Shown: positions 1,268 through 26,778 of the stretch, in pieces
How the letters are laid out: the number at the start of each line of letters is the position of its first letter
Position numbering within the stretch: the first letter of the stretch is position 1
Virus record (IMG/VR): IMGVR_UViG_3300029068_000004
DNA from: a virus
Lineage: Duplodnaviria > Heunggongvirae > Uroviricota > Caudoviricetes
Length of the DNA stretch: 28,003 nt
Reading direction: 5' to 3' (one strand)
Made by a program: the position numbers and the translations under genes
Notes under the pieces: model-generated
The model's database searches: none
The model's input: the letters and a program-made list of their open reading frames with translations, nothing else
What the model was told of the DNA's origin: nothing

Positions 1268-4200
1268 TCAGCTAATCGTGATGCCTGCAGTGGCTTTCTT
1301 CATCACCACAACCAGCAAATCGCTGATACTTGCTGTGGGATACCAGTTATTTACCAGCCATGCTGACACCGAAAACTCCAGTGTCATGTGACCGTGACCG
1401 GCAGGCATATCAATAACACCACTGTAAATCAGCGTATTATCCAGCGCGGTACGGTTATAAATTTCAGCACCGTTTTTCCGTACTATCAGGCGGCATGACG
1501 AATAAATATCGTTATTCTCCCGCTCATGTTTAGCGCCGCTGAATGCCACCGCCGGAATAACAATCTGCCGGTCAAACGGCTGATCGTCATAAACCCTGAC
1601 GGTAATGGTCCCTGATGGCCACCGCTCCGGTGCCCGGGAGTCCCGTGGGAAAGCCTTACCCACTGTTTTGACAATATCGCCTTCAATCTGGTTGGCTGAC
1701 AGTTTCCCTTTAATCTGACAGTTCTCATTTATCGTAACGTTGTTGAGCGTCCCGGAGTTCGCATTCACACTGCCACTGATATCTGCATTTTTAGCGGTCA
1801 GCTTTCCGTCCGGTGTCAGGGAAAATGCCGGAGGATTACCGCCGCTGGTAATGGTCGGAGCCGTCAGGCGTTTCAGGAACACGTCGTTCATGAATATCTG
1901 ATCGCCCTGACCAACAAACATTGGTCTTGTGTTGCCATTAGACGGATCAATAAACGCGATACGGTTAGCGGCAACCAGAAACTGGCTCAGTTTGCCTTCC
2001 TCCGTGTCCTCCATGCTGAGGCCAATACCCGCGACATAATGTTTGCCGTCTTTGGTCTGCTCAATTTTGACGCCCCACATGGCATTCCACTTATCGTTGG
2101 CGTCCTTCCACTCTTTCGAAAACTGCTCCAGTTTGCTGGCGTTATCTTCCGTCAGCTCAAAGTTTTCCAGTAGCTCCTTGCCGAGATGCGTTTTATTGAT
2201 CAACCCTTTATAAAAATTCAGATAACCTTCCGCATCATCGCTCGCCCGACCGACGGCCTCCACAAATGCCGATTTACCAACGGTATTCACGCTGCGGATA
2301 TAAAAGTAATAATCATAACCCGGCTTAATATTGCTACTGGCAGCTATCCAGTACAGCGCCGTGCCAAGATAGCGGGCTGTGGTTTCAACCTGCCTGATAT
2401 CAGCAATCCGCTTTTCCGAGAACCAGAACTCAAACTGCACCGTCGGGTCATATACAGCCAGTTTCGGGACCGCTGTTATCTGAAAATACCCTGGTATCAG
2501 TTCAATAGTGACAGGCGCTGCAGGTGCGGCAATCCGGAACGATACCGATGCCGGATCGCCCTGCTGACCCCACGCATTTGCCGCCCGGACCGTCAGCGTG
2601 TAACGCCCCAGCGCCAGCTGCCTGAAGCGGTATGTGGTTTCCGTCGTCCGGACCGTGCTGACCAGCCGCTCACTGCCGTCATCCGCTGTTACGGTCAGAC
2701 GGAGCAGGAAGCTCACGCCCTTCACCACCTTCGGCGTGTCCCAGCGGGCCAGTACCTGATATTCCCCGCTGTCTGCGGTGACTTCGGCGGTCAGATGCTG
2801 CACTGCTGGCGGCGTGACACCATTCACCGTGCCGCTCTGGTCACCGTCAAAGTGCGCCCCGTTATCCACGATGGCCTCTTTCTCCGGCACATGCTGCACG
2901 GCAGTGATGGCATACGTGCCGTCGTCGTTCTCACGGATACTCACGCAGCGGAACAGGCGCTGGCGCAACGTCGGCAGCTTCAGTCCCCATACGCTGTATT
3001 CAGCAACACCGTCAGGAACACGGCTCACTTTTACCTTCACGCCGTCGGTGACGGACTGAACCTCCACGCTGACCGGATTGCCACTTCCGTCAACCAGGCT
3101 TATCAGCGTGGTACCGGAGGATGGCAGAGTGATTTCACGGTCGAGCGTCAGCGTCCGGGTCTGGCTGTTTACCGCCAGCACGCGCCCGCCGGTGCGGATA
3201 CCGGCATAGTCATCATCGCAGATTTCAATGACATCGCCCGGTACATGGCGAAGCCCTTCGGCACCCACGCTGAAGTCCACGGTCTGCGTTTCCAGCAGTT
3301 CTGTTTTAATCAGCCACAGCCCGGCGCGGTGTGCCTGCCCCCGGCTGGTACAGCCAAAAGCATCCATCTTCGTGACGTTACGACCGTAACGGGCAATGGC
3401 CTGTGTGTCCTCCACAAGCTCTGTCGCCGTCTCCCAGCCGTTATTCGGGTCAATCCAGTTCACCTCAACGGCATTATGGCGGTCCTTCAGGGCGCTGAAG
3501 CTGTAGCGGAACGGCGCACCATCATCCGGCATCACCACATTACTGCGGTTATAGGTCCACACCTTATCCGACGGTCGGTCCTGCACGAACGTCAGCGTCT
3601 GCCCGTTCCATACCGGCATACAGCGCATCGCCGAGCAGAAATCACTGAGCACATCCCACGCCTTGCGCTGTGTGGTCAGGTACGCATTACAGGTGATGCG
3701 CGGCTCCGTGCCGCCAAAACCGTCCGGCACCGACTGATCGCAATGCTGGCCGATGACATACAGCGCCCATTTGTCCACATCCGCCGCACCAAGACGTTTC
3801 CCCATGCCGTAGCGCGGATGGGTCAGCATATCCCACAGACACCAGGCCATGTTGTTGCTGTATGCTGGCTTAAACGTTCCGTCCCAGATACCGCTGTATT
3901 GCCGCGTCTGCGGGTTATAGTTCGACGGCACCTGCAGAATGCGCCCGCGCAGATGATAATTACGGCTCACCTGCTGGCTGCCGAACTGCTCCGAATCCAC
4001 CTGCACGCCGACCAGTGCCGTGTTCGGGTAGCCCTGTTTCACATCGATGATTTCGGTGTATGACGACCAGAGCGTTTTGTTCTGCAGCTGGTCTGTGGTG
4101 CTGTCCGGCGTCATCCTGCGCATCCGGATATTGAACGGGCGCGGCGGCAGGTTACCCACCACCACCGAGGCCAGATACTGCGAGGTGGTTTTGCCCTTAA

Positions 4201-4663
4201 TGGTGATGTCTTTTTCCGTCACCCAGCCACCATTACGCTGGATCTGAACCAGCAGGCGGACTTCCGACGGATTCCTGTCCCCCTTTGAGGTGGTTTCCAC
4301 CAGTGCCTGCACGCCGAAGGTAAAACGCAGTCGGTCAATGTTTGCCGACGTGATGGTCCGGGTGATCGGCGTGTCGTATTTCACTTCCGTACCCAGCACC
4401 GTCTCGGAGCCGGAGGATTCAAATCCCTCCGGCGGTGTCTGCTCCTGCTCACCGGCCCGGAACACCACCGTGACACCGGAGATGTTGGTATTCCCCTCAG
4501 TGTCCAGCACCGGCGTACTGTTCAGCAGCACACTTTTTAATCCGTCCACCGGACCTTCAATCGGCCCTTCACTGATGGCGTCTATCACGCTCAGCATCTG
4601 GGATGATTTCAGGTTGTCCTTCGCTTCGCGCGGGGTATGCCCCTTACTGCTGCCTTTACCCAT
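1268..4663 (-). CDS. J: Tail tip / host specificity protein J (central tail fiber)
   Basis: 1131-aa ORF; N-terminus [20 protein letters not shown]... and most of the length match lambda J (1132 aa) from memory; position between I and lom. Confidence 0.95.
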
Positions 4664-4723: not shown

Positions 4724-5365
4724 TCAACGACCAATCACCACAACCTGACCACCGTCCCCTTCGTCTGCCGTGCTGATCTCCTGAGATACCACCCGCGACC
4801 CCACACGCATTTCACCGTACAGAACGGGCAGGACATTGCCCTGGGCAACCATATTATCCAGTGAAGAAAAATAGGTGTTCTGTTTGCCGTTATCCGTTGT
4901 CTGTGTGTGGGGGGTTTTGGGTTTAGGGGCCAGCATCTGTGCAACACCGCCAAGCGTCATACTGGCACCGAGAGAAAACAGCAGATTACTCGCCATAATT
5001 CCTACCCCCGGCATCCATATAGCAACCGCCATAACAGCCGCCCCCAGCACAGCCTGGAACACACCGCCACTTTTGGCTCCTGCCAGACGCGGCACGATGT
5101 GGATCACAGCACCATTTGCCAGCGGTTCATTAAGACGGGCTGATAATTCCGTTTCACCTGTATCACGCCCGGCAATGCGTATCTGATACCAGCCGTCGCT
5201 CAGCTTCTGACGAAACGCCGGGATCTGCATGGCCAGCGCCCGGATGGCTTCGGCCCCCGTTTTCACACGCAGATCGATGCGGCGGCCAAATCGTTGTAAA
5301 TCCCCGTAAAGGCAGATGCGTGCCATGCCTGGTGACGCCAGAGGGAGTGTGTGCGTCGCTGCCAT
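4724..5365 (-). CDS. I: Tail tip assembly protein I (ubiquitin-like beta-grasp family)
   Basis: 213-aa ORF starting MAATHTLPLASPGMARICLYGDLQRFGRR, as lambda I from memory; ends about 60 nt upstream of J as in lambda. Confidence 0.9.
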   Translation of the reverse strand: MAATHTLPLASPGMARICLYGDLQRFGRRIDLRVKTGAEAIRALAMQIPAFRQKLSDGWYQIRIAGRDTGETELSARLNEPLANGAVIHIVPRLAGAKSGGVFQAVLGAAVMAVAIWMPGVGIMASNLLFSLGASMTLGGVAQMLAPKPKTPHTQTTDNGKQNTYFSSLDNMVAQGNVLPVLYGEMRVGSRVVSQEISTADEGDGGQVVVIGR

Positions 5366-5941
5366 TTGTCGGTATACCTCTCACGTTTGCTCAGTTGTTC
5401 AGGAATATGGTGCAGCAGCTCGCCGTCACCACAGTAAATGGCGGCATGATTCGGCACCGATGAACCAAAACAGCACAGCAGCACATCGCCCGGTTGTGCT
5501 GATGACAACGGCACCTGATACAGCCCTGTGGCCTCCAGATTATCCAGATAGAGATTCTGACCGTGACGCCACCAGTCATCCTCGCGATGAAAATCCGGCA
5601 TATCAATCCCCGCCAGATGGTAAGCATCCCGGAACAGCGTGTAACAGTCCGTCACCCCGTGCTCAAAGCGCCGCCCGGTGAGATACGGCACACAGCGGAA
5701 TTTATGAATCTCCCCACGGCAGACCACCGGGGTGGCTGTGGACCAGCGCCACAATCTCACCCTGCATCTCTGCCCGCAGCCAGTCCTCCGGCGACATCCG
5801 GAAATACGCCTCCGACTCACCGGAGATATTCACGCAGGGAAAATATCTTTCCCCTTCCGGCGTTCTCACCACGAAGCCGCACGACTCCGCTGGCGCACAT
5901 CGCCGGGCGTGCGCCAGAATCGCTGATTCTGTCTCTGTCAT
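5263..5941 (-). pseudogene. K: Tail tip assembly protein K (JAB/MPN + NlpC/P60) split across two reading frames, probable frameshift pseudogene
   Basis: The N-terminal part (5941-5702, 79 aa, MTETESAILAHARRCAPAESCGFVV...ALVHSHPGGLPW then stop) and the C-terminal part (frame of ORF 5263..5820, ...GEIHKFRCVP...NlpC/P60-like...) are both K-like but in different frames. The break falls inside the JAB motif HxHx7Sx2D, immediately after HSHPGGLPW. Confidence 0.7.
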
Positions 5942-5946
5942 GGGAT

Positions 5947-6645
5947 TTACTGCGAAAGTTTGTTAATGGAAAGGAAGCCGCCAAAGTTGCCGACATTATT
6001 GCGGAACTTACAGCCACTCAGGCATTTGCTGCATTTATCCTTCGTGATTTCGGATGTCGGCTGGTCATATTCATCCGCGACCGCCGGACCGTGATAACCG
6101 CACTCATCACCGCGATAGGTCCAGGTGCAGGTATTAGCAAGCATGATGCGCCCCGGAAAAACAGCGCCGTCCGTTTCCGTCGGCGTGGACAGTACAAAGG
6201 AGGCACTGACCGCGCTCAGTTCGCTGCACTGCTCAATACGCCAGCGGCTGATCACCTCCTGCTCCGGATCGGCGTCACTGTTTCCGTTGACGAAGTTCAC
6301 CGCATCCAGAAAACGGGCGTAAACCTTACGCCTGACCACCGTTCCGCCGACCAGACTCTGCAGGTCTTCCGCCATCCCGGTGACCATGCCGTGCAGATTA
6401 GAGACTTTCAGCGTTGGCCTTGCACTGGCACCTTTGCCGTTCATCTCAAATCCACTCCCCTGAATGGGATAGGCCTGATACTGCCGACTCTGCCAGGTGA
6501 CAGACTCTCCTTTCTCGTTCTGCTCATTGCAGAAAAAGTAGCGATCCCCGCCTACCTCGGTCAGGTCGATTTCCCAGAGCACCACGCTGGCCGACTGCTC
6601 CGCACGAATGCATTCATTCAGCGTTTCCTGTTGTATGTCCTGCAT
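5947..6645 (-). CDS. L: Minor tail protein L
   Basis: 232-aa ORF, same length as lambda L and N-terminus [33 protein letters not shown] familiar from lambda L; M stop and L start overlap (TGATG). Confidence 0.9.
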   Translation of the reverse strand: MQDIQQETLNECIRAEQSASVVLWEIDLTEVGGDRYFFCNEQNEKGESVTWQSRQYQAYPIQGSGFEMNGKGASARPTLKVSNLHGMVTGMAEDLQSLVGGTVVRRKVYARFLDAVNFVNGNSDADPEQEVISRWRIEQCSELSAVSASFVLSTPTETDGAVFPGRIMLANTCTWTYRGDECGYHGPAVADEYDQPTSEITKDKCSKCLSGCKFRNNVGNFGGFLSINKLSQ

Positions 6646-6983
6646 CAGATCACCACTTCGTCAAACTGACACGAAAAATCGGTATAGGTGATATGTTCTG
6701 TCGCTGACCACGTTCGACACACCACTCTGATTTTTCTGTTAATACCAGGCGGGCGCCAAAAAAAAGATTTATAGCCTTCATGCCGGGCTAAAAATTTTTC
6801 AAATGAATCACGTTCATTCGCCTCAACTTTGAAATCACAGGTGAAAACGCGCAGAGAATGATTAAGTCCATTTGGACTTCGTTGCTCATAACCATCGCCA
6901 AATCTTACAGTTTTTATCGATGGTTTATTTTCTGTTTTCATTCCATCCTCTGGTAACCAGTGAAATTCTTCCGTATTAGCCAC
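6645..6983 (-). CDS. M: Minor tail protein M
   Basis: 112-aa ORF containing the VRFGDGYEQ...FLW...EQV core resembling lambda M. The start at 6983 is GTG with a GGGGGAA Shine-Dalgarno; an alternative ATG at 6941 is possible. Confidence 0.8.
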
Positions 6984-9900
6984 TTAACATTCCCCCATCA
7001 CGTCGCATATTTAACAGATTGCCCTGCACCCGCTGATCAACCATCCCCATAAGTGCTTTTATTGCCTGAGGGCCAATCTCTCCATTCTGGCCGTCATTTT
7101 GAATAGTGATTTGGTATACAGGGGCATAGGTAATATCTCCGCCTCCATTACCACTTTTACTATTAATAGCTCTGACACCAAGAGAACCATCGGAAGTTCG
7201 TGTTAATGGCATAATGGCTTCCGGACCAGCCTCACCAAAAACACCAGCCCCTTTTGCAAAAGCAAAAAATTGCGGGGAATCATAAATACCGTTCGAATAC
7301 GTGTTCAATGACGGAGACTCATAAACACCGCCCTTTGCATTCGGAATAAATTTACTAATAGCACTCCCGATAGTTCCTAAAATCCCCCCCGAAGAACTGT
7401 TACTAATGCTGTCGAAAATCCGAGTAATTGAAGCCTTTAATGCTATTCGACTAAGATCCGAAATCACGGAAGTAGCGAAAGAACGAAAATTTGCCTTGCC
7501 TGTCGTGACAAAATCACCCAGCGCATCGGTCATTCCATCAAACATCTGAGTCGTGGTTGATTTTATCTGCTCACTGATATCCTTAGTGTCATCCAGCCAG
7601 TTATTGAATCCCTGGGAGGCACCACTAACCCAGTCTCCTGCCTGAATATCGAGCTGCTCGTTTTTCTGTCTGACAATTTCTTTTTCTCGTTCCAGAGCAT
7701 CATTCAGAGCCTGCATTTTCTCCTGAAAAACATGATTTGACATCCCACGGGATTTATCTGCATAGTCACGTTCAAGTTGCAGACGCTGATTGTTATATTC
7801 ACGTTCAATCCGCAGTAATTCCTGCTGGCGTTGCTGATTTTTATCGCCAACCCCATAACCAGCAATCTGAATATCATACCCCTGTTGACGATTATCAATC
7901 GAAGCCTGCAATGAATCACGCCATGCAGCTATTTCGGCGGATTCCTTGATTAGCCTGTTATTTTTTTCAATCGCAACATTTTTCTCCATCAACGCGGTTA
8001 TTTCTTCCCGGTGTAAGAGAAGCGATTTCTGATCCTTGGTTAATTTCGATGACGGTCGTGACTCCAGGTCGGCAATCTGCTGACGCCACTTAACCAGTTC
8101 CTGTTCAGAGGAACTTAATTTAACGGTTAATTCAGTTTGTGAACTTAGTAACGCATTCTGTTGATTCAGATGATCAATCATTCGTTGGGCAGCATCATCC
8201 GAATAACCTTTCGCCTTTGGTTGCTTTGGATCTTTATAACGCTCATTTATTTGAGCGATAAGATTATTATATTCTTCCTTTGAATACTGACTCTTTAGTT
8301 TTTCCAGTTTTGCAAGTTCACTAGCTCTCTGCTGCTCCCGGGTCTGATATTGTTTTGAAAAGGCATCTGCTCTCTGTCTGAGTTCAATTCCTTCCTGTTG
8401 TCGCTTGTTGTAATCGTTTATTGATGAATTTAGTACGTCCTGAGCAATTTTTTCTGCTTGAAGTACGCCCAATTGCTGCTTTAATCGTGCCAGCCTTTTA
8501 TTTTGAGCTCCGCCATCTCCAATGCCACCTAACCCGAAAACTCCGGGTCGGGTATTTTTTTCTATTTCATCAATTTGACGGAGAACATCTGAGATTTTTT
8601 GATCAAGGGAGGCCTCACGGCCAATATCCAGCATGGAATCCCATGCCCATTTTGCGGAGTCTGCGACAGCTTTCCATGCAGTCTCAAGATAACCAAGATT
8701 TTCTTTAATCTGGTTGGTGCGCTGGATCATTGAGGATGAGTATGCTTCTGTCGCAATGCGGGCGGCCTCCTGCTGGTTCCCTTCATCCTGTAGCGCCTTA
8801 ATCTGGTTATAAGTCGCAATTGTCAGAAAATGGTACTGATCATTAAGTTTTGATATGGCACTGACAGGATCCTTTGCAATTTCATTGAAGTCATTAACCA
8901 GTTGTTCGGTTGATATTCCTGTTACTTCGCTCGTTTTTACTATCGCTGTCGTCACTTGCTCCAGCGAACTGCTCGCTACCTTTCCCGAACGCACAAGCTG
9001 GTTTAATACTGCCGCCGCAGCGCCAGTTGTCGAATCAGCCGCATTCCCGGCACGTTGAGCTATATCGGCCAATTGCCCGCTGGTTGTCCCCAACTGATTT
9101 CCGGTAAGAATAAGAGATTTATTAAATTCGTCCTGCTCCTGAGAGCCTTTATAGTAAGCCAGCCCTAAGACGCCAACGGCTGCTGCGGCCAGGGTAAAAG
9201 GATTAATTAATCCCAGCACATAAGAACCAACACCTTTGATCGCCGGGCCAATCCCACCGAACATATCTTTTAGCTGGCCGCCCTGCTGCATTAACACCAT
9301 AAAAGGCGACTGACCAGTGGACAACCCAACAACAATATCCGTCATTTGTGCAGGCAACATGCGCATAGCAAAAGCCGTTTGTTTTGCCGACATTCCGGTT
9401 TTGCTTAATTGAGATTGAGTAACCTCAAGCTCACTCCGCATAGCACGAAGTTTTCCAGAAAGTTCCTCATACATTTCAGGAGAGAGCATCCCCTTAGCTT
9501 TTGCTTCATTGAGCTGTTTCTGTTGTTCTACCAGACGATTAAAAGCAGTTCCGACAGGGTCAAGTTGAGCAATCAGACGTTGCAAAGCAGCAACCTGTTC
9601 ATCATGCGCTTTTGCTGCTTCTCGCTCTGCCTGAGCCTCTCCGGTAAGCTCTCGCCGTGTTTCCTGTATTTTTCGGCTATAATTCTCAAACTGAGAACCA
9701 TTTATTTTCCCGGATGCAAACGCAGCATTAAGTTCATCCTGCTGTTGTTCAAGATTTCTTAGCGCCGCAGCCAGAGGGTCGATCTTGTCCAGCATTCTTT
9801 GAAAGGCCTGAGCCTGCGCTTCCTGCTGGGCGGCAGCAAGTTTTCCGGCCTTCTCGGCTTCTCTCTGCGCTTGCGCAACCCCGCTCAATTCCTCTGTGGT

Positions 9901-10209
9901 TTCATTAAGTTTACGGACAAGAAATTCATATTCTTCTTTATCAATAAGCCCTTTATCGAAAAATTTCTTTAATTCAGAATAGCGTCGACCGACAGTATCA
10001 ATTGCGGCACCAACTGGATCAATAGCTGCTTTTAATTTTGCGAGCGCGTTCTTCTCATCTTCTGTTGCCTTAGTCACTTTCCCTGCGCTATTTGCAGCAG
10101 TTTCCCCGGCCTGCGTCATTTTGACTAATGAGGAGGTCAGATTGTCAGCATTATTTTTTGCTCCAGTGCTATCAATAATTATTGCGAGACGCGAGGTTTG
10201 CTCTGCCAT
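6976..10209 (-). CDS. Tail tape measure protein
   Basis: 1077-aa ORF immediately upstream of M and downstream of the G/G-T chaperones; coiled-coil-rich with repeated A/Q/E/K segments and a glycine-rich hydrophobic segment, typical of tape measure proteins. Confidence 0.9.
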
Positions 10210-10236
10210 TTATTAAAACTCCAGACAACAAAAAGC

Positions 10237-10260
10237 CCACCGAAGTGGGTTTCAGGCGAC
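10237..10260 (-). promoter_or_regulatory. Short stem-loop (CCCAC-UUCG-GUGGG) with U-rich tail just upstream of the tape measure start
   Basis: Minus strand GAAACCCACUUCGGUGGGCUUUUUGUUG lies in the roughly 160-nt non-coding gap between the T frame stop and the tape measure ATG. Confidence 0.3.
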
Positions 10261-10372
10261 ATAATAGTAGATATAGCGATTACGAGGCCACGCAATGCTT
10301 TTCTCCAGGAGCATCATCGATTTAATTAAAGACACCATCACATCTCTGTAACAGAGTGTACGTAATTAACAA

Positions 10373-18562: not shown

Positions 18563-19870
18563 TTAAATCCGAAGTGATGTGACTCTTCCGATCGGTTTGA
18601 CAATAGGGAATTGCTTAACGATGAAATAACCTCCGGCATCATTCGGGTGATCATTGCCAGATTTTTTATCAGGCTCCCCCTTCTCATCCCAGACCTGTTG
18701 CTCCAGAGATTCGGCATATAACGGGCAACGCTTCACATTAACTTTATAGCGACGCTCACCATTGGCATTGCAGAACATTGCATTCATTGAGTTAACGCGA
18801 TCTTTTACTGGCGGGTTCGAGCTGTTCACCACAACGTTAAAACCAGCCTGCTTAAGCTGGGCTATATCCGTCGTACTTGCGTTACTTGATTTTCTGGAAT
18901 CCCCGGAAGCATCTGGATAAATATAAATTTCCCTCACTTTCCGGTAATCATTCCCATCATACAGCCAGAAGCGTTCTTTAATGATGCGGATCATATCCGG
19001 CGTATCGTAGGCATTGATGATTTCAGTTACCGCACATGGAAGCCCCAAACGCAGCACATGGACGATTCCCGCCATCTTTCCAACGTTAAAATCCATCCCA
19101 ATATAAATCGGCTCCCCTGGCTGCTCCACTTCTTCGCAATTATTCAGTTTCCGGTCAAACTGATGGTAAACAGTACCACTTGTCAGGTTAGTAAACTGTC
19201 CTCGAAGATAGGCTTTAATCAGCTCTGGAGGGTATGATTCAAGAAGCGAAGGAATGTAATCTGCTGGCAGGTTCTTTTCATTATCGAAAGTAGATGCCTG
19301 CACCAGACCATACAGTGAGGCCAGCTCTGTTTTTTCACGCACGGCTTTAACAAACTGCTCGTAGACAAATTTGAATCCTTCCGGCGTGGTTGTAACGTCA
19401 ATACCGTTGCGAAGTCCATCAATCTTATAACGCATACGTGCAATTATCTTGCGCCACGCCGTTCTGGCTTTTTCCTTCGGCAAAATGTCCAGTTCATCCA
19501 CCAACGCATTACCAATTTTGAAACCGACGATCGTTTGTGGCTTCTCCATCGATCTGCAGATAGTGGTTCCCCGATACTGGCGTCCGTAATAAAAGTGAAC
19601 CTCTTTATTTCCCTCATTAATTTTTACGTTCAATCCCCAGTCAGCAGCAACTTCTTCCACTGTAGGGTAAAAAATATCGCGAATTTGGGGATACGTTGGC
19701 GCAAAATATCCCTGATTTATACCTGGATGCTCCCAAATCCCCTTGCATATGCCGCCACACCCAACCCATGTTTTGCCCGAGCCAAAACCAGCAATATAGG
19801 CTTTAAATTTATGGGGCATTGAAAGAAATCGCGCCTGAGGCACATTAAGCGTCGGAGAGATCATCTTCAT
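18563..19870 (-). CDS. Terminase large subunit
   Basis: Walker A P-loop AGFGSGKT near the N-terminus, acidic motifs, size about 435 aa; probable ATG at 19870 (the track start at 19873 is GTG). Confidence 0.9.
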   Translation of the reverse strand: MKMISPTLNVPQARFLSMPHKFKAYIAGFGSGKTWVGCGGICKGIWEHPGINQGYFAPTYPQIRDIFYPTVEEVAADWGLNVKINEGNKEVHFYYGRQYRGTTICRSMEKPQTIVGFKIGNALVDELDILPKEKARTAWRKIIARMRYKIDGLRNGIDVTTTPEGFKFVYEQFVKAVREKTELASLYGLVQASTFDNEKNLPADYIPSLLESYPPELIKAYLRGQFTNLTSGTVYHQFDRKLNNCEEVEQPGEPIYIGMDFNVGKMAGIVHVLRLGLPCAVTEIINAYDTPDMIRIIKERFWLYDGNDYRKVREIYIYPDASGDSRKSSNASTTDIAQLKQAGFNVVVNSSNPPVKDRVNSMNAMFCNANGERRYKVNVKRCPLYAESLEQQVWDEKGEPDKKSGNDHPNDAGGYFIVKQFPIVKPIGRVTSLRI

Positions 19871-20939
19871 CACTCCTTACTCTGGCATCAACCACATTAA
19901 TATTGATCGCCACAGGCTGGGGATGTTCATTATCCTCCACCGTTTCGATCTCTTTGCGCAGCTTCTGGTTTTCTATTCTGCGCCGTTCAATTTCCAGTTC
20001 CTGTAGCCGCTTATCTGCACATAATGCCCCGCCAGCAGAAAGCAAACGCAACAATTCACGCCGGGCGGCAGCCTTATCCTCCAGCAGGATCTCAACACCG
20101 TATTTTCCGAGCTTTGACCCTGCATATAATTGCCGCGCATCCCCATCAAGCAGTGTGGTATCAGCCATATAAAGCTGTCCCGTTCCCTCACCGCAGCACT
20201 TCGGGCAATCCGGATTGGGTATGGCGTTATCAACAAAGCCGAGGCCTCCATATTCCGGCTCGGATTTACCATCTCTGGAGGCCTGTGCCGCAGCCTTATC
20301 GAATTCTGCAATATCACGCCACTGGTAGAGATGATTCTCGCCCCAGCAATAACGGCAGTTAACACGGCGAAATTGTGCCAACTGATTGGGGTCGGCCTGG
20401 ACAATGGCCATCAACTGGCTCACCAGTAAATCCAGGTCTGCGGTATAGCGTTTCTGGTACTGATTGCGGAAGTAGCTGATAGCACGATAAACCCTGGCAT
20501 TTCTAAGCATACGACTGGCGTTGCTGTTAGCTGTCGCACCTTGCCCCTCATAACCGGCTAGTCGGTACGCCTCTGTCGGCTTTTTACCCTGAGCAACAAG
20601 CATCGCAAACTTAGCCTGCTGGTCAGAAATGCCGAATTCATCGGGACAGAACGAAAATTCCTCCGCGTCGCCCTCATTCAGGCCCGCATCGAATACTGGC
20701 TTTTTTTCCTGAGATTTTTCGTTCCGCTTTTGTGCAGTCTGCGCAGATTTTTTCTGCGCACTTTTTTGCGCAGTTTTGCGCATTTCTGTCTGCGCATTTT
20801 TCGGAGGTTTTTTGATGTAACGACGGGCTGTTGCGTAATTCAGTCCCCTTGCTTCACACCATGCCACCGGAGATATACCGGAGCGGGTGTATTCAGCAAT
20901 ATACTCCTGCTGCAACGCCCCCCAGTCCGGTCTGCTCAT
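19845..20939 (-). CDS. Terminase small subunit (Terminase_2-like core with N-terminal HTH and C-terminal Cys-rich region)
   Basis: Residues around ...AKFAMLVAQGKKPTEAYRLAGYEGQGATANSNASRMLRNARV... fit the small-terminase pattern from memory; N-terminal HTH-like segment; CRYCW...CPKCC cysteine cluster; directly upstream of the large terminase. Confidence 0.7.
   Translation of the reverse strand: MSRPDWGALQQEYIAEYTRSGISPVAWCEARGLNYATARRYIKKPPKNAQTEMRKTAQKSAQKKSAQTAQKRNEKSQEKKPVFDAGLNEGDAEEFSFCPDEFGISDQQAKFAMLVAQGKKPTEAYRLAGYEGQGATANSNASRMLRNARVYRAISYFRNQYQKRYTADLDLLVSQLMAIVQADPNQLAQFRRVNCRYCWGENHLYQWRDIAEFDKAAAQASRDGKSEPEYGGLGFVDNAIPNPDCPKCCGEGTGQLYMADTTLLDGDARQLYAGSKLGKYGVEILLEDKAAARRELLRLLSAGGALCADKRLQELEIERRRIENQKLRKEIETVEDNEHPQPVAININVVDARVRSDEDDLSDA
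20731..20796. repeat. Array of palindromic TGCGCA hexamers (5 perfect + 1 TGTGCA) with T/A tracts, inside the 5' part of the small terminase gene
   Basis: TGTGCA at 20731; TGCGCA at 20740, 20755, 20767, 20777 and 20791; spacing 10-15 bp. Encodes the low-complexity peptide ...KTAQKSAQKKSAQTAQK... Confidence 0.8.
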
Positions 20940-20942
20940 CAG

Positions 20943-21194
20943 TTAGTCCTGATTTTTATCCACCCTGAGTAGTTCGCGCAGAGCAAAGGCATCCCCTTTT
21001 CTGGCAAGCTTAAACAATGCCGCTCGTAACTCGGCTTCACCTTTCGCTCTGCCCTTACGGATGGCCGCATAAAAATCTGTCATTGCTTCCCGATTTTCTT
21101 TCAGTCGGTTCAGATCAACATCCAGAACGTCAGCGATTTGTTGTGCAGTCATCCGGCACGCTGCCAGAGACTCGACTTTCGAATACGGAATCAT
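20943..21194 (-). CDS. Small HTH DNA-binding protein (function unknown)
   Basis: 83-aa ORF with an HTH-like segment MTAQQIADVLDVDLNRLKEN; its stop lies 3 nt upstream of the small terminase ATG. Confidence 0.45.
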   Translation of the reverse strand: MIPYSKVESLAACRMTAQQIADVLDVDLNRLKENREAMTDFYAAIRKGRAKGEAELRAALFKLARKGDAFALRELLRVDKNQD

Positions 21195-22062
21195 TTGTCA
21201 CCCCTATTGATATGCAGGGTGTCTTCTTCCTGTATTTTTCGTGAAGGATTTTTACTGCAGCGTTGTTCCAGGTGACCTGATGGTGAATGCGTTTATGGCT
21301 GGCACCCATCAGTGAGATTTTTACGCACGACGGCGCATACATGACGGAGTAAAAACTTTTAACGTAGGTTCCGGAATCCAGATACAGCTCGGTCATTCCG
21401 CCGCTGTTTTTCTGCGTCTGTTTCTGCCCTAACTGGACAGCACCGATCGTCATAAACAATTCACCACAGCGACCGAGATTCGTGTACGTATTCACATCCT
21501 CGTTAATGCGCCCCATGAATGAGAACGGTCGATCAACCGAACAGATAAAGCTGTTCATTGCCTTGCGTTTCACCCACGAAGCATGGCCGCCATTGTCACC
21601 AAGAAAATCCCCTCCCTGCGACATAGCGATGGAAAGAGCAGGTATTGATTCGTAGTACGCCAGCATTTCAGAAAGGATCGCATCCAGTTTCCTTATCGGA
21701 AAATAGGCCTGGTCATAGTTGCGATCCACCCGAAACTGGAACTCGTGATAATCATCATCGAGCTGAATGAAGTATTTACACCCGACCAGTTTTGCCTGGT
21801 CGAAACAGGCATTACGGGCGTAAAAAATTGAGCGGCGGTCACAGAAATTATCGGCTTCGTCAAAACGACTGGCGATATCGGCTTTGGAAAACACCAGCAC
21901 CTGTTCACCAAATTCAGCCATGTACTGATGCCGTGTCTTATCTTCATCATCAACAACGATAAAAATTTTCCCGGTATAGCCAGCACGACGCAACGTCCGG
22001 TAAGTCAGAACTTTGTCCGGTCGCCCGTGAGTCAGAATAAAGGCGCAAAAATCATCACGCAT
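21130..22062 (-). CDS. Hypothetical enzyme with GT-A (family-2-like) glycosyltransferase sequence pattern
   Basis: 310-aa ORF with ATG at 22062. Sequence pattern CAFILTHGRP ... KIFIVVDDED ... YARNACFDQAKLVGCKYFIQLDDDY resembles the GT-A N-terminal strand plus ARN...G.Y...LD.DD (DXD) signature; no C-terminal transmembrane segment. Confidence 0.4.
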   Translation of the reverse strand: MRDDFCAFILTHGRPDKVLTYRTLRRAGYTGKIFIVVDDEDKTRHQYMAEFGEQVLVFSKADIASRFDEADNFCDRRSIFYARNACFDQAKLVGCKYFIQLDDDYHEFQFRVDRNYDQAYFPIRKLDAILSEMLAYYESIPALSIAMSQGGDFLGDNGGHASWVKRKAMNSFICSVDRPFSFMGRINEDVNTYTNLGRCGELFMTIGAVQLGQKQTQKNSGGMTELYLDSGTYVKSFYSVMYAPSCVKISLMGASHKRIHHQVTWNNAAVKILHEKYRKKTPCISIGVTNDSVFESRVSGSVPDDCTTNR

Positions 22063-22846
22063 ATTCCTCCTCCTCACCACCATGCATGATCTCCACCATG
22101 CGCTGCGTCATCCGGACAAATCCATTTTCAATAGCCTGCTGATAATCAATGATCACCAGCGCCGACTCCTCGAAAAAACACTGAATTTCAGCGGGGGCGT
22201 GAGCGTAATAGTCCGCAATTCTGCTGAAATTAAACACCGTGTGACGTTCTGCCGCACACAGGAGGAATTTCTCAATATCAGGCTCAAGGGACGCCGAACG
22301 TATCCGGCTGATCAGCTCCTGAGTTTTCGTATCGTCGTACAGTTCACTGATATCCGGTTTACCGCCCGACGGCTCATAAACAGGCGTATCAATTTTCGTC
22401 GTATACGGCTCCTCCTCATTTCCTGTACCGGGCAAAACATCCGTCAACAGTTCATCAATTTCTGTCGGGATGAAGCCTGTCAGGGAGACATCAAAATCAG
22501 CATTGATTAGGTCCGACAGCTCCATCCGCAACAGATCTTCATCCCAGCCAGCATTCATCGGCAGGCGATTATCTGCCAGGCGGTACGCCTTTTTCTGCTC
22601 ATCCGTCAGGCCAGACAGAACAATGACCGGAACAGAATCCATTTTGAGCATTTCAGCCGCCATAACACGACCGTGACCCGCAATAATTTCGCCCTTTTCG
22701 TCAATCAGCACCGGATTAGTCCAGCCGAATTGCTTAATACTTTCTACCAGTTGTGCCACCTGCTCAGGGCTGTGCGTCCTGGCGTTGTGCGCATACGGTG
22801 ACAATTCTTGTAATGGGCGATAGACTATCTTTAATTTCTCGCTCAT
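22055..22846 (-). CDS. ParB-like (ParB/Srx N-terminal domain) protein with a C-terminal domain of unknown function
   Basis: N-terminus ...LSPYAHNARTHSPEQVAQLVESIKQFGWTNPVLIDEKGEIIAGHGRVMAAEMLKMDSVPVIVL matches the ParB N-domain pattern including GHxR. Ends with the acidic tail GGEEEEYA, whose codons (GAGGAGGAGGAA) form the Shine-Dalgarno for the downstream gene. Confidence 0.7.
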   Translation of the reverse strand: MSEKLKIVYRPLQELSPYAHNARTHSPEQVAQLVESIKQFGWTNPVLIDEKGEIIAGHGRVMAAEMLKMDSVPVIVLSGLTDEQKKAYRLADNRLPMNAGWDEDLLRMELSDLINADFDVSLTGFIPTEIDELLTDVLPGTGNEEEPYTTKIDTPVYEPSGGKPDISELYDDTKTQELISRIRSASLEPDIEKFLLCAAERHTVFNFSRIADYYAHAPAEIQCFFEESALVIIDYQQAIENGFVRMTQRMVEIMHGGEEEEYA

Positions 22847-22873
22847 ACAGCCTTGCTTTATGAATAAAACGCA

Positions 22874-22897
22874 CCCCAGCAGCCAGTGCTACTGGGG
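22874..22897 (-). terminator. Terminator-like hairpin between trkG and the ParB-like gene
   Basis: Minus strand CCCCAG-(12-nt loop)-CUGGGG followed by UGCGUUUUAUUC. Confidence 0.4.
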
Positions 22898-22983
22898 ACG
22901 GAGGTATTGCTGGTAAAGTTAGGTATTGGATCAATGAGTGAGTCAACATAATATTAAACTCACAATTATAAATCAGCCATATA

Positions 22984-24441
22984 TTAGGAGCGCCAAAAAA
23001 AACCTGAAAACAATATAATAACAGGATAAATTTCAAGGCGACCAAGAATCATAGCTATGCACATTAAACATTTTGCAATGTCATTAAGCACTCCGAATGA
23101 CGATGCAGTAGCCCCAAAACCTAATCCCATATTATTAATACATGCAGCCACTGTTGCAAATGATGTAAGAAAATCATATCCCATACCATTTAACACCAGT
23201 ATAAAAAACACCGTGAAGAGAGTATAAAGAAAAAAGAAACTCCATACAGACCTCATTACACGATCTGTAACTATCTTCCCTCCTACATTTACACTCAACA
23301 ACGCTCTGGGATGAGAAAGCTGATTTATCTCGTGTTTGCTTTGTTTGAAAAGTATAAGAAATCGAAGTGACTTAATTCCACCACAAGTTGAACCTATACA
23401 TCCCCCAAAGAAACTTGACAACAGCAAAAACACTATCGTGTGCGTGGGCCAACTTGCATAATCCTGCGTAGCTAAACCATTATCAGTGAGCATGGAGCTG
23501 GCAAGAAAAAACGAATGAATAAAACTTCCATGCAAGTCATACATACCTATATGCCAGACCTGGAAAGAGGTAACAATGATCACCCCTAAGGCTATTAACA
23601 GAAAGAAACGAAGTTCAATATCTCTGATTAAAGGTTTTATCGTTTTCCTGCTAATAACAATATACCAAAGAGTGAAGTTGAAAGCCGATAGCAGGGAAAA
23701 AGAACCAGCCACCAGCTCAACCAAATAGTTATTAAAATATCCGATACTCTCGCTATGAGTTGAGAAACCACCAAGCGAAACTGTGGAAATCCCGTGACAA
23801 ATAGCATCAAACAAAGGCATTCCTGCAAGTCTATAACAGACAATACAAGCAATACCTAATAAAGAATAAGTTATCCACAGTGTCCGTGACGTATCGGCCA
23901 GGCGGGGAGTGAGTTTGTCATCCTTAAATGGCCCCGGCATTTCTGACTGATAAAGCTTTGCACCACCAATACCCAATAATGGCAATACAGCAACCGCCAG
24001 AACAATAACTCCTAAACCACCTATAAAATTTAACTGTGACCGATAGTACAAATATGCCCGAGGTAATGAACTAACATCATCAATTACAGTTGCTCCTGTT
24101 GTTGTTATTCCAGAAACCCCTTCAAACAGAGCATCAATGAACGTTAAATTAAGTTCTGAGTCAATCCATAAAGGGAATGCACTAATAACAGAAAACAAAA
24201 TCCAAAACATTACAATTATAATAAACCCATCACGGGTACGTAATTGAATGCCAGATTTCTTAGTTGTATACCACGCTCCGCCACCAATGCAAAAAAATAT
24301 AACGAAAGTTATAAAGAAAACAAACAGGCTTTTTTCTTTATAAAACAATGCTACAACCATTGGTGGCAACATTGAAAGACTATAGAGCCAAACCAGGAAC
24401 CCACACATATGAGTAACAACTCTTACATGAGATGTATTCAT
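22984..24441 (-). CDS. trkG: TrkH/TrkG-family potassium uptake protein (moron)
   Basis: Polytopic membrane protein; from ATG 24441 it reads MNTSHVRVVTHMCGFLVWLYSL..., as E. coli Rac-prophage TrkG (485 aa) from memory. A TTG at 24459 with an AAGGTGG Shine-Dalgarno is an alternative start. Visibly AT-rich versus neighbours. Confidence 0.9.
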   Translation of the reverse strand: MNTSHVRVVTHMCGFLVWLYSLSMLPPMVVALFYKEKSLFVFFITFVIFFCIGGGAWYTTKKSGIQLRTRDGFIIIVMFWILFSVISAFPLWIDSELNLTFIDALFEGVSGITTTGATVIDDVSSLPRAYLYYRSQLNFIGGLGVIVLAVAVLPLLGIGGAKLYQSEMPGPFKDDKLTPRLADTSRTLWITYSLLGIACIVCYRLAGMPLFDAICHGISTVSLGGFSTHSESIGYFNNYLVELVAGSFSLLSAFNFTLWYIVISRKTIKPLIRDIELRFFLLIALGVIIVTSFQVWHIGMYDLHGSFIHSFFLASSMLTDNGLATQDYASWPTHTIVFLLLSSFFGGCIGSTCGGIKSLRFLILFKQSKHEINQLSHPRALLSVNVGGKIVTDRVMRSVWSFFFLYTLFTVFFILVLNGMGYDFLTSFATVAACINNMGLGFGATASSFGVLNDIAKCLMCIAMILGRLEIYPVIILFSGFFWRS

Positions 24442-24578
24442 ATCTAAATATTCTTTCAATTATAACCACCTTGCTGCAATATTATGATTATACTGTATAA
24501 AATTTAACTCCTCTTAGATCTTACTTCACTGTTCCTTATGAAACAATCATCAAAATGAATCATATTGTAGTTAAGATT

Positions 24579-25043
24579 TTACTTTAAACACTGCTCGGTT
24601 ATGTATTGCTGAGCACCTTCAAGTTGGGCCTGCATCATTACCAGTCGTTCCCGGAGGGTGAAATAATCCCGTTCAGCGGTGTCTGCCAGTCGGGGGGAGG
24701 CTGCATTATCCACGCCGGAGGCGGTGGTGGCTTCACGCACTGACTGACAGACTGCTTTGATGTGCAACCGACGACGACCAGCGGCAACATCATCACGCAG
24801 AGCATCATTTTCAGCTTTCGCATCAGCTAACTCCTTCGTGTATTTTGCATCGAGCGCAGCAACATCACGCTGACGCATCTGCATGTCAGTAATTGCCGCG
24901 TTCGCCAGCTTCAGTTCTCTGGCATTTTTGTCGCGCTGTTCTTTGTAGGCGATGGCGTTATCACGGTAATGATTAACACCCCATGACAGGCAGACGACGA
25001 TGCAGATAACCAGAGCGGAGATAATCGCGGTTACTCTGCTCAT
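24579..25043 (-). CDS. Rz: Rz i-spanin
   Basis: 154 aa with an N-terminal transmembrane segment and coiled-coil body; lambda-Rz-like sequence; start overlaps the R stop (ATGA). Confidence 0.9.
24638..24823 (-). CDS. Rz1: Rz1 o-spanin lipoprotein, embedded in Rz in the +1 frame
   Basis: 61-aa [27 protein letters not shown]... with a lipobox (VVGC) and proline-rich segment; wholly inside Rz, as in lambda. Confidence 0.85.
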
Positions 25044-25516
25044 ACCTCAATCTCTCTGACCGTTCCGCCAGCTTCTTTGAATTTTGCAATCAGACTGTCA
25101 GCCTTATGCTCGAACTGACCATAACCAGCGCCCGGCAGTGAAGCCCATATATTGCTGCAACGGTCGATAGCCTGACGGATATCACCGCGATCAATCATCG
25201 GCAAAGCGCCACGCTCTTTAATCTGCTGCAGCGCTACAGCATCCTGACTTTCTGGAGAAAAATCTTTCAGGCCAAGTTGCTTGCGGTAGGCATCCCACCA
25301 GCGTGAAAGAAGCTGGTAACGTCCAGCGGCTGTTGATTTGAGTTTCGGATTTAGCGTGACAAGTTTGCGGGGGTGATCGGAGTAATCAGTGAACAGTTCG
25401 CCACCGACAATAACATCATAACCGTGATTTCTGGTTTTCTGCCGTCCGTTATCTGTTCCTTCTGACCATGCCACCATATCAAGGAAAGCTTTACGCTGGG
25501 AATTAAGTGTCTGCAT
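25040..25516 (-). CDS. R: Endolysin (lambda R-type lytic transglycosylase)
   Basis: 158 aa; sequence ...[33 protein letters not shown]... is near-identical to lambda R from memory. Confidence 0.95.
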
Positions 25517-26078: not shown

Positions 26079-26240
26079 ATGTCTGAAAAAAACAAGCCAC
26101 AAGATGAAAATAAACCTCAGCAACCCGTGGCACCAAAACCAACTCCAACACAAAGTACTACAGACTTTGCTACACGTCGTGTTTTTGTTGGAGATTCTGC
26201 CGACTCAGTCATTGAACATATAAAAAAACAGCCGAGATAA
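26079..26240 (+). CDS. Small hypothetical protein (53 aa), convergent with and overlapping the 3' end of the membrane-protein gene
   Basis: Plus-strand ATG at 26079 with an AAGAGGA Shine-Dalgarno 5 nt upstream; MSEKNKPQDENKPQQPVAPKPTPTQSTTDFATRRVFVGDSADSVIEHIKKQPR; hydrophilic and proline-rich. Confidence 0.35.
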   Translation: MSEKNKPQDENKPQQPVAPKPTPTQSTTDFATRRVFVGDSADSVIEHIKKQPR

Positions 26241-26778
26241 ACATCGCCGCTACCGGAGCAAGGATGGTATACATCCTTGCTTTATCGAGACTCGTGCGGA
26301 TTTTCTCATTTTCCAACAGTAACTCTCTTGCTGTATCACTCAAGTCAACAAGGCGATACCTTCGTATAAGCGGCAATAACTTATCAGGTCCTAAATATCC
26401 TGCATCAGCGAATATTTTAAAGCTCGAGGGCTCCATATCCTTATATTTTTCATGATATAGATGATCAGGAGGGGCATTGATCAGGCCCCTAACCTTCACA
26501 GATAAACCAGTACATATCAAGTAAATGGCGCACCATGTCCATAGTAATGTAAATGTGGTAATTCCGGCGGTGAGAAAATCGAAATTAGTTTTCTGTGTCA
26601 GCAATAAAAAAGATGAACCAATTCCAACAATCTGAATGTTCAGAAGTTTGTATCCATTCTCAACATTGGTTTTGTTAGAAAGATGAATCTCTCGTATCGT
26701 CTCTTCCCCTTGTTTTTCAAGATAATCGACGAGCTCATCATCTACTCCTAAAAAATAATCTTTAGGTAGTTCTCTCAT
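26209..26778 (-). CDS. Hypothetical membrane protein (189 aa, about three predicted transmembrane segments), moron
   Basis: ATG at 26778 with a GGAGGTG Shine-Dalgarno; hydrophobic segments IQIVGIGSSFLLL, AGITTFTLLWTWCAIYLICTGL and YTILAPVAAMFISAVFLYV; AT-rich; I recognise no family. Confidence 0.6.
   Translation of the reverse strand: MRELPKDYFLGVDDELVDYLEKQGEETIREIHLSNKTNVENGYKLLNIQIVGIGSSFLLLTQKTNFDFLTAGITTFTLLWTWCAIYLICTGLSVKVRGLINAPPDHLYHEKYKDMEPSSFKIFADAGYLGPDKLLPLIRRYRLVDLSDTARELLLENEKIRTSLDKARMYTILAPVAAMFISAVFLYVQ

What the first reader, a model, noticed from the sequence alone, without database searches (positions are those of the whole stretch)
5690..5830. Tail assembly gene K is split by a frameshift inside its JAB/MPN catalytic motif, probably a short direct-repeat deletion
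The K-like reading frame runs ...EIVALVHSHPGGLPW and then hits a stop (GDS*). The rest of K (…CRGEIHKFRCVP… and the NlpC/P60-like region) continues in a different frame. The JAB motif HxHx7Sx2D is therefore cut after HxH, and the Ser/Asp half is not encoded in any frame. The junction lies in GGTCTGCCGTGGG, and as I recall lambda K carries that sequence twice (GGLPW ... LPWWLVCRG), consistent with slippage deletion between direct repeats. Lambda K is needed for tail tip assembly, so if real this makes the prophage tail-defective.
Basis: partly seen in the sequence, partly recalled or inferred. Interest (0 to 1): 0.55.

Follow-up and report, generated by a model that had tools for sequence, protein, structure and literature searches.

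The report
Prophage tail gene K broken by deletion
A lambda-type prophage tail-assembly gene (K) has lost 65 bases between two copies of a 9-base repeat, which shifts the reading frame and removes part of its protease active site; it is an ordinary inactivating mutation of a kind common in resident prophages.

Summary
On the minus strand, gene K (5263-5941) is 679 nt long; intact K genes are 744 nt. Exactly 65 bp are missing. In intact K genes (lambda, PhiR47_2, E. coli Rac-like prophages) the missing segment is bounded by two exact copies of TGGTCTGCC. One copy remains in the window, at 5718-5726. Because 65 is not a multiple of three, the N-terminal JAB/MPN frame stops three codons after the junction, giving a 79-aa product that ends HSHPGGLPWGDS*. 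The complete NlpC/P60 domain continues in another frame. Of the JAMM motif, E19, H68 and H70 remain; S78 and D81 are deleted. The junction was found in none of 5,426 complete E. coli genomes, 50,697 phage records, IMG/VR, JGI metagenomes or GTDB representatives. The intact form is abundant in those collections. The window is a 28,003-bp JGI/IMG contig carrying the late region of a Rac-type (trkG-bearing) prophage. Every other late gene has the same ORF length as in an intact relative. The best reading is a recent, private, microhomology-mediated deletion that makes K a pseudogene. The phage is then probably tail-defective unless K is supplied in trans. This is ordinary prophage decay and of low novelty. 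An assembly artefact is unlikely but cannot be excluded without reads.

The parts
5263..5941 (-). Gene K (tail tip assembly protein K; JAB/MPN + NlpC/P60) as a pseudogene: 679 nt instead of 744 nt
   Evidence: Alignments to intact K show a single 65-nt gap. Length arithmetic and a simulated deletion in the reference reproduce the junction.
5702..5941 (-). N-terminal fragment ORF of 79 aa. It is a truncated JAB domain that keeps E19, H68 and H70, lacks S78 and D81, and ends GDS*
   Evidence: ORF list. Pfam Prok-JAB E=1e-11, covering profile positions 4-79 of 114. The exact 79-aa product is recorded only from one JGI/IMG contig of 28,003 bp.
5718..5726 (-). Deletion junction: the single surviving copy of the 9-bp direct repeat TGGTCTGCC
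   Evidence: This is the only occurrence in the window. Intact K genes carry two copies 65 bp apart, in 109 of 120 IMG/VR loci plus lambda, PhiR47_2 and L016. The flanks differ immediately on both sides of the repeat.
5263..5717 (-). C-terminal remnant of K in a shifted frame: native residues from about V95 to the end, with a complete NlpC/P60 domain and no native start codon
   Evidence: ORF 5263-5820. Pfam NLPC_P60 profile 1-105 of 105, E=4e-13. Alignment to intact K.
4724..5365 (-). Gene I (ubiquitin-like tail assembly protein I). It is intact, and its start overlaps or abuts the 3' end of K, so it may be affected by polarity
   Evidence: Pfam Lambda_tail_I E=6.5e-24. K/I overlap is seen in the annotations of relatives.
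5947..6645 (-). Gene L (minor tail protein L), intact; upstream neighbour of K
   Evidence: Pfam Phage_tail_L E=4.5e-98. Same length, 232 aa, as in L016.
1268..4663 (-). Gene J (tail tip / host specificity protein), intact; part of the L-K-I-J synteny
   Evidence: ORF of 1131 aa, equal to gpJ of L016.

Best explanation
Gene K of a Rac-type lambdoid prophage lost 65 bp (one 9-bp repeat copy plus the 56-bp spacer) by recombination or slippage between two exact direct repeats, TGGTCTGCC. In intact K these lie 65 bp apart and in different codon phases. The loss removes codons for about residues 75-94, including Ser78 and the zinc ligand Asp81 of the JAMM motif E..HxHx7Sx2D. It also shifts the frame, so translation ends after 79 residues. 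The C-terminal two thirds of K, including the whole NlpC/P60 peptidase domain, is left without its own start codon. K is therefore a pseudogene. gpK is a non-virion factor required for lambda tail assembly, so the prophage is expected to make no functional tails unless K is supplied by another resident lambdoid prophage. Shown here: the deletion, its exact boundaries, the repeats, the truncated product, the intact neighbouring genes, and the fact that the allele is private. Inferred: the slippage mechanism, the loss of function, and that the lesion is biological and not an artefact.
For: Three independent alignments show a 65-nt gap and nothing else in K. The repeats lie at nt 216 (phase 2) and nt 281 (phase 1) of intact K, and a simulated deletion gives 679 nt, as observed. 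One repeat copy is left in the window. The repeat pair is present in 109 of 120 IMG/VR K loci and in all references. Pfam finds a truncated Prok-JAB domain and a full NLPC_P60 domain in separate frames. The JAB fold spans K residues 7-109 by alignment to PDB 2kks, so the deletion lies in the domain core. The JAMM His and Asp residues bind zinc (PMC300881). gpK is required for tail assembly (PMC12617516) and was not detected in virions by mass spectrometry (PMC10721106). The closest intact allele (E. coli MSHS 133) matches both flanks, with 1 of 224 and 9 of 477 mismatches, and includes the CCGTGGGG variant next to the junction. The junction is absent from all collections searched, while controls gave hits. 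All other late genes have the same ORF lengths as in L016, and the only other net indel is 2 bp in an intergenic stretch.
Against: No reads are available, and the window is a single 28-kb JGI/IMG contig seen once, so the allele has no independent confirmation. The essentiality of K is taken from lambda genetics and not tested for this phage. The catalytic role of the JAB domain in K has never been demonstrated. A weak internal TTG or GTG start upstream of the NlpC/P60 part cannot be excluded. Slippage within one molecule cannot be formally distinguished from unequal exchange between two K copies.
Confidence: 0.85

Rival explanations
1. The 65-bp gap is an assembly or sequencing artefact, and the real genome has an intact K.
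For: The allele occurs on one contig only and in no other record. E. coli genomes carry a median of 3 K paralogs, which complicates short-read assembly. The contig ends lie in repeated prophage genes.
Against: The two sites share only 9 identical bases, and the flanks differ immediately on both sides. That is far shorter than any assembler k-mer, so reads spanning the junction must exist (inference). Typical sequencing errors are 1-2 nt homopolymer indels, not a clean 65-nt loss bounded by repeats. Paralog mixing would produce in-register chimeras, not a deletion.
Confidence: 0.08
2. The gene is split but still functional. The NlpC/P60 part is translated separately from an internal GTG or TTG near the junction and suffices for tail assembly, with the JAB part dispensable.
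For: The NlpC/P60 domain is complete. Iyer et al. noted prophages whose TAPK has only the NlpC/P60 domain (PMC1779556). In-frame TTG and GTG codons lie just upstream of the junction, with at best a weak AGG-type Shine-Dalgarno sequence (sequence reading).
Against: Iyer et al. suggest that those NlpC-only versions may be degenerate prophage variants (PMC1779556). 100 of 107 full-length K genes are a single ORF, and no other record has this arrangement. There is no convincing ribosome-binding site. The last JAB strands (VCRGEIHKF...) would be orphaned.
Confidence: 0.05
3. The deletion arose by misaligned (unequal) recombination between K genes of two different resident prophages, not by intramolecular slippage.
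For: There are several K paralogs per genome. Mismatch rates to the closest allele differ somewhat between the flanks, 0.4% against 1.9%. Lambdoid prophages recombine readily (PMC3945230).
Against: Mismatch density against L016 does not change at the junction: 10 and 8 per 250 bp on the two sides. The mosaic boundary lies about 800-1000 bp away, at about 6530-6750. The same allele (MSHS 133) is the best match for both flanks.
Confidence: 0.1

Closest known systems
Lambda tail tip assembly protein K (gpK / TAPK; Prok-JAB PF14464 + NlpC/P60 PF00877; 'C40 family peptidase' in PGAP)
   Same: 97-98.6% nucleotide identity outside the gap. Same L-K-I-J synteny. Same N-terminal JAB residues E19, H68 and H70. 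Same complete NlpC/P60 domain.
   Different: 65 nt are missing, S78 and D81 are lost, the frame is shifted, and the product is 79 aa instead of 247 aa.
Rac prophage of E. coli K-12 and full-length Rac-like prophages (for example in strain Z1322HEC0005, locus L016)
   Same: Same gene order: stfR, lom, J, I, K, L, M, tape measure, ydaY, tail tube, head genes, portal, terminase, ynaK, trkG, lysis. 99% identity over 5714-25043.
   Different: From my own knowledge, K-12 Rac has lost most of the structural region, whereas here only K is visibly damaged. J, I and the K 3' part are a more divergent mosaic, 93% identical to L016.
Microhomology-mediated (slipped-strand / short direct repeat) deletions
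   Same: The deleted segment equals one repeat copy plus the spacer (9 + 56 = 65). One copy is retained at the junction, and the repeats are exact.
   Different: Nothing unusual. The mechanism itself (replication slippage, single-strand annealing or unequal exchange) cannot be read from the sequence.
NlpC/P60-only TAPK variants in prophages (Iyer, Burroughs and Aravind 2006, PMC1779556)
   Same: A K homolog whose JAB part is not functional, next to the ubiquitin-like gene I.
   Different: Here the JAB coding sequence is still 97-99% identical to intact genes. It has only just been cut, so this is a fresh lesion and not an established architecture.

Membership tests
Lambda gpK / TAPK (functional member) | N-terminal JAB/MPN domain with complete JAMM motif E...H(S/T)Hx7SxxD | tested here: not met
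   E19, H68 and H70 are present. S78 and D81 lie in the deleted 65 nt and are encoded in no frame. Motif definition from PMC300881.
Lambda gpK / TAPK (functional member) | C-terminal NlpC/P60 (C40) peptidase domain in the same polypeptide | tested here: not met
   The domain is complete (Pfam 1-105 of 105), but it lies in a different frame, downstream of the stop of the JAB frame.
Lambda gpK / TAPK (functional member) | Single ORF of about 247 aa between L and I | tested here: not met
   The region holds a 79-aa ORF and a shifted remnant. Intact relatives have 744-nt ORFs.
Lambda gpK / TAPK (descent: K-derived pseudogene) | Nucleotide homology and L-K-I-J synteny | tested here: met
   97-98.6% identity on both flanks to annotated K genes. 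Pfam assignments of L, M and I.
Direct-repeat (microhomology) deletion | The ancestral allele has two direct repeats bounding the lost segment, and the derived allele keeps one copy | tested here: met
   TGGTCTGCC occurs twice, 65 bp apart, in 112 loci, and once in the window.
Direct-repeat (microhomology) deletion | Arises by replication slippage (RecA-independent) and not by another route | not testable with these tools
   Sequence alone cannot separate slippage, single-strand annealing and unequal exchange. The flank comparison slightly favours an intragenic event.
Programmed frameshift or naturally split gene | The two-frame arrangement is conserved in homologs | tested here: not met
   100 of 107 full-length K genes are single ORFs. 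The 7 exceptions carry different lesions. The junction was found nowhere else. The lambda reference's apparent split is a 1-nt discrepancy absent from resequenced lambda.
Rac-type lambdoid prophage | Late-region synteny that includes the trkG moron | tested here: met
   100% coverage at 97.6-98.5% identity to E. coli chromosomal prophages annotated with trkG, ydaY, ynaK, stfR, tfaR and pinR.

The most novel reading that the evidence does not exclude
The K-null prophage is not dead. Either it still spreads because K is supplied in trans, or K is repaired by recombination with the K genes of co-resident lambdoid prophages (median 3 K homologs per E. coli genome). Alternatively, a separately initiated NlpC/P60 fragment is enough for tail assembly, which would mean the JAB/JAMM half of K is dispensable.
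Probability: 0.15. Interest if true: 0.3.

Novelty: already known. Interest (0 to 1): 0.12.

Why it matters
The lesion matters little beyond annotation. It marks this otherwise complete Rac-type late region as probably tail-defective, at a very early stage of prophage decay with a single visible lesion. It also gives a clean textbook example of a deletion between 9-bp repeats that sit in different codon phases. The one broader point is a caution. The function of K's JAB and NlpC/P60 domains, predicted to process the ubiquitin-like gpI, is still untested. A natural allele that separates the two domains could serve as a reagent for that question.

Tried and rejected
(1) I looked for the same junction elsewhere.
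- A 33-nt exact pattern found nothing in GTDB representative genomes or IMG/VR.
- A 27-nt pattern found nothing in JGI metagenomes or IMG/VR.
- A 41-nt megablast query, designed so that intact genes cannot seed a match, found nothing in 5,426 E. coli genomes or 50,697 phage records.
- Positive controls worked.
- A looser 21-nt pattern gave only chance hits in unrelated, mostly high-GC genomes such as Streptomyces.

(2) An exact-product contig lookup returned nothing. The cluster lookup showed the product exists only on this contig. The other short cluster members listed that I read are K genes ending at various points in the native sequence, named 'partial' by their sources; none ends in GDS.

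(3) I considered whether lambda itself naturally has a two-frame K. The reference record does, with K annotated as 199 aa. Resequenced lambda has one more G and a 247-aa single-frame K, so I rejected this idea.

(4) I considered whether the junction is a mosaic or recombination breakpoint. The BLAST split at the junction suggested it, but the mismatch profile places the boundary at about 6530-6750, not at 5718-5726.

(5) I did not run structure prediction or large protein-database searches. Nucleotide-level comparison with near-identical intact genes already answers the question.

Full report
**What is in the sequence**

All genes in this part of the window lie on the minus strand. Between L (5947-6645) and I (4724-5365) there is no single K ORF.

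- ORF 5702-5941 encodes 79 aa: MTETES...EIVALVHSHPGGLPWGDS*.
- A second frame (listed ORF 5263-5820) reads ...TATPVVCRGEIHKFRCVPYLTGRRFEHGVTDCYTLF... through to the normal K C-terminus.
- Pfam assigns the first ORF to Prok-JAB (E=1e-11), but it covers only profile positions 4-79 of 114.
- Pfam assigns the second to NlpC/P60, covering the full profile (1-105 of 105).
- A three-frame translation of 5640-5830 shows no SxxD continuation of the JAMM motif in any frame.

**What happened**

Megablast of 5250-5950 against phage records and complete E. coli genomes gives near-identical hits at 96-98.6%. Each is split into two pieces spanning 763-766 nt in the subject, against 698-701 nt in the query. 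Direct alignments were made to the following:

- the annotated 'tail tip assembly protein K' of phage PhiR47_2;
- a Rac-like prophage of E. coli Z1322HEC0005 and lambda;
- the closest allele, from E. coli MSHS 133.

Each shows one gap of exactly 65 nt and no other indel in K.

In intact K the gap is bounded by two exact copies of TGGTCTGCC, at nt 216-224 and 281-289. The bases flanking the two copies differ immediately on both sides, so the homology is exactly 9 nt. Deleting one copy plus the 56-nt spacer from the reference reproduces the 679-nt length and the junction seen in the window. The window keeps a single copy at 5718-5726, which is its only occurrence in 28 kb.

The two copies are in different codon phases. 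The first reads GGT GGT CTG CC (G-G-L-P). The second reads TGG CTG GTC TGC C (W-L-V-C). This is why the deletion shifts the frame.

**Consequences for the protein**

Intact K is 247 aa: MTQTES...HSHPGGLPWLSEADRRLQVQSDLPWWLVCRGEIHKF.... The JAMM motif is EXnH(S/T)HX7SXXD, in which the two His and the Asp bind zinc (PMC300881). In K these residues are E19, H68, H70, S78 and D81.

The deletion removes about residues 75-94, so S78 and D81 are lost. Translation stops at codon 80. Alignment to the solved JAB protein 2kks places the JAB fold at K residues 7-109, so the lesion lies in the domain core.

The NlpC/P60 part has no native start. In its frame there are only a GTG and a TTG just upstream of the junction, with at best a weak AGG-type ribosome-binding sequence. 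The next ATG lies after the catalytic Cys (sequence reading).

The start of I overlaps or abuts the end of K. Premature termination about 340-440 nt upstream might therefore also reduce I expression. This is an inference.

**Context**

The exact 79-aa product is on record from a single JGI/IMG contig of 28,003 bp, which is this window. The window is 97.6-98.5% identical over 25 kb to chromosomal E. coli prophages that carry trkG, ydaY, ynaK, stfR, tfaR and pinR. This makes it the late region of a Rac-type lambdoid prophage.

The following genes have the same ORF lengths as in the intact relative L016:

- tail genes: lom, J, L, M, the tape measure, the tail tube and the terminator;
- head genes, the portal and both terminase subunits;
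- trkG and Rz.

Apart from K, the only net indel is 2 bp in the intergenic stretch at 10241. K is thus the only visible lesion, which implies a recent event.

**How unusual is it**

The junction was absent from every collection searched:

- 5,426 complete E. coli genomes;
- 50,697 phage records;
- IMG/VR;
- JGI metagenomes;
- GTDB representative genomes.

Control queries from the intact sequence gave 60 phage records and at least 120 IMG/VR loci. The substrate for the deletion is widespread. Of 120 IMG/VR K loci, 109 have the exact repeat pair, as do lambda, PhiR47_2 and L016.

K genes broken in other ways are not rare. Of 107 full-length K genes in the fetched loci, 7 carry a nonsense codon or a 1-2 nt frameshift. 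The allele is private, but the phenomenon is commonplace.

**Mechanism and rivals**

The anatomy is the classic signature of a short-direct-repeat deletion: the lost segment equals one repeat plus the spacer, and one copy is retained.

I tested whether the junction is an inter-prophage recombination breakpoint. BLAST against L016 splits there, with 99% identity on one side and 93% on the other. The mismatch profile, however, shows similar densities on both sides of the junction (10 and 8 per 250 bp). The real mosaic boundary is at about 6530-6750. The same allele, MSHS 133, is the best match for both flanks. An intragenic event is therefore favoured, though unequal exchange between paralogs is not excluded.

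An assembly artefact is unlikely. Nine shared bases cannot mislead a k-mer or overlap assembler, and sequencing errors do not produce clean 65-nt losses. Without reads this remains an inference.

A conserved split or programmed-frameshift arrangement is rejected by the single-frame state of homologs. The one apparent exception is the lambda reference record, where K is annotated as 199 aa starting at M49 and the JAB N-terminus lies in another frame. It lacks one G that is present in resequenced lambda genomes (PV340536, KT232076) and in all relatives.

**Function**

gpK is required for lambda tail assembly, and its location is unknown (PMC12617516). It is not detected in virions (PMC10721106). 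[quoted passage not shown] They also noted that NlpC-only versions in prophages may be degenerate (PMC1779556).

A 79-aa product is expected to be null, so the prophage should fail to build tails. Two escape routes exist. E. coli genomes hold a median of three K homologs. Defective lambdoid prophages are known to be complemented by, or to recombine with, co-resident phages (PMC2669165, PMC3945230).

**Verdict**

The lesion is an ordinary, private, inactivating deletion in a well-known gene. Interest is low.

Noticed in passing
L017 (lambda NC_001416) 1267-1268, i.e. record position about 14266; compare window 5790-5800: The lambda reference sequence (J02459/NC_001416) lacks one G in K (GGAGGC-TATTTCC). 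Resequenced lambda (PV340536, KT232076) and all lambdoid relatives have it. This is why K is traditionally given as 199 aa starting at M49, and is still quoted that way in reviews. The resequenced gene encodes 247 aa with a complete JAB domain.
   Followed up: yes
window 10687-10693 (-), with ORFs 10681-11142 (-) and 10373-10606 (-): An A_AAA_AAG slippery heptamer sits at the end of the G-like tail chaperone ORF (ydaY-like). The -1 frame is open into the T-like ORF. This is the conserved G/GT programmed frameshift upstream of the tape measure gene, and it appears intact.
   Followed up: partly
window 21130-22083 (-) and 22055-22846 (-): A TET-associated glycosyltransferase (PF20691, E=1.5e-34) lies next to a ParB_N-domain protein (ynaK-like, 263 aa), between the terminase genes and trkG. 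This is a possible DNA-modification module. The ynaK-like ORF is intact here but is annotated as a pseudogene in the relative L016.
   Followed up: no
window 22984-24459 (-): The potassium transporter gene trkG is embedded between the packaging and lysis genes. This is the moron that marks the element as Rac-type. Here the full structural region is present.
   Followed up: partly
window about 6530-6750: There is a sharp mosaic boundary relative to the E. coli Z1322HEC0005 prophage. To its right (M, tape measure, head genes, to 25 kb) mismatches are mostly 0-5 per 250 bp, apart from a short patch at about 20000-20500. To its left (L, K, I, J, lom) they are 8-40 per 250 bp. The boundary is not at the K deletion.
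   Followed up: yes
loci L037, L048, L061, L080, L110, L136 (IMG/VR K genes): Six of 106 other full-length K genes in prophage-derived IMG/VR contigs carry their own lesions: one nonsense codon and several 1-2 nt frameshifts. K inactivation is therefore fairly common. None of them shows the 65-bp deletion.
   Followed up: partly
window 25040-25516 (-) and 26209-26778 (-): Two ORFs in the lysis and late-regulation region have no Pfam hit at E<=0.001. The ORF at the lysozyme position is 158 aa, against 165 aa for rrrD in L016. The window and L016 do not align between about 25043 and 26941, so the lysis cassette has been replaced.
   Followed up: no
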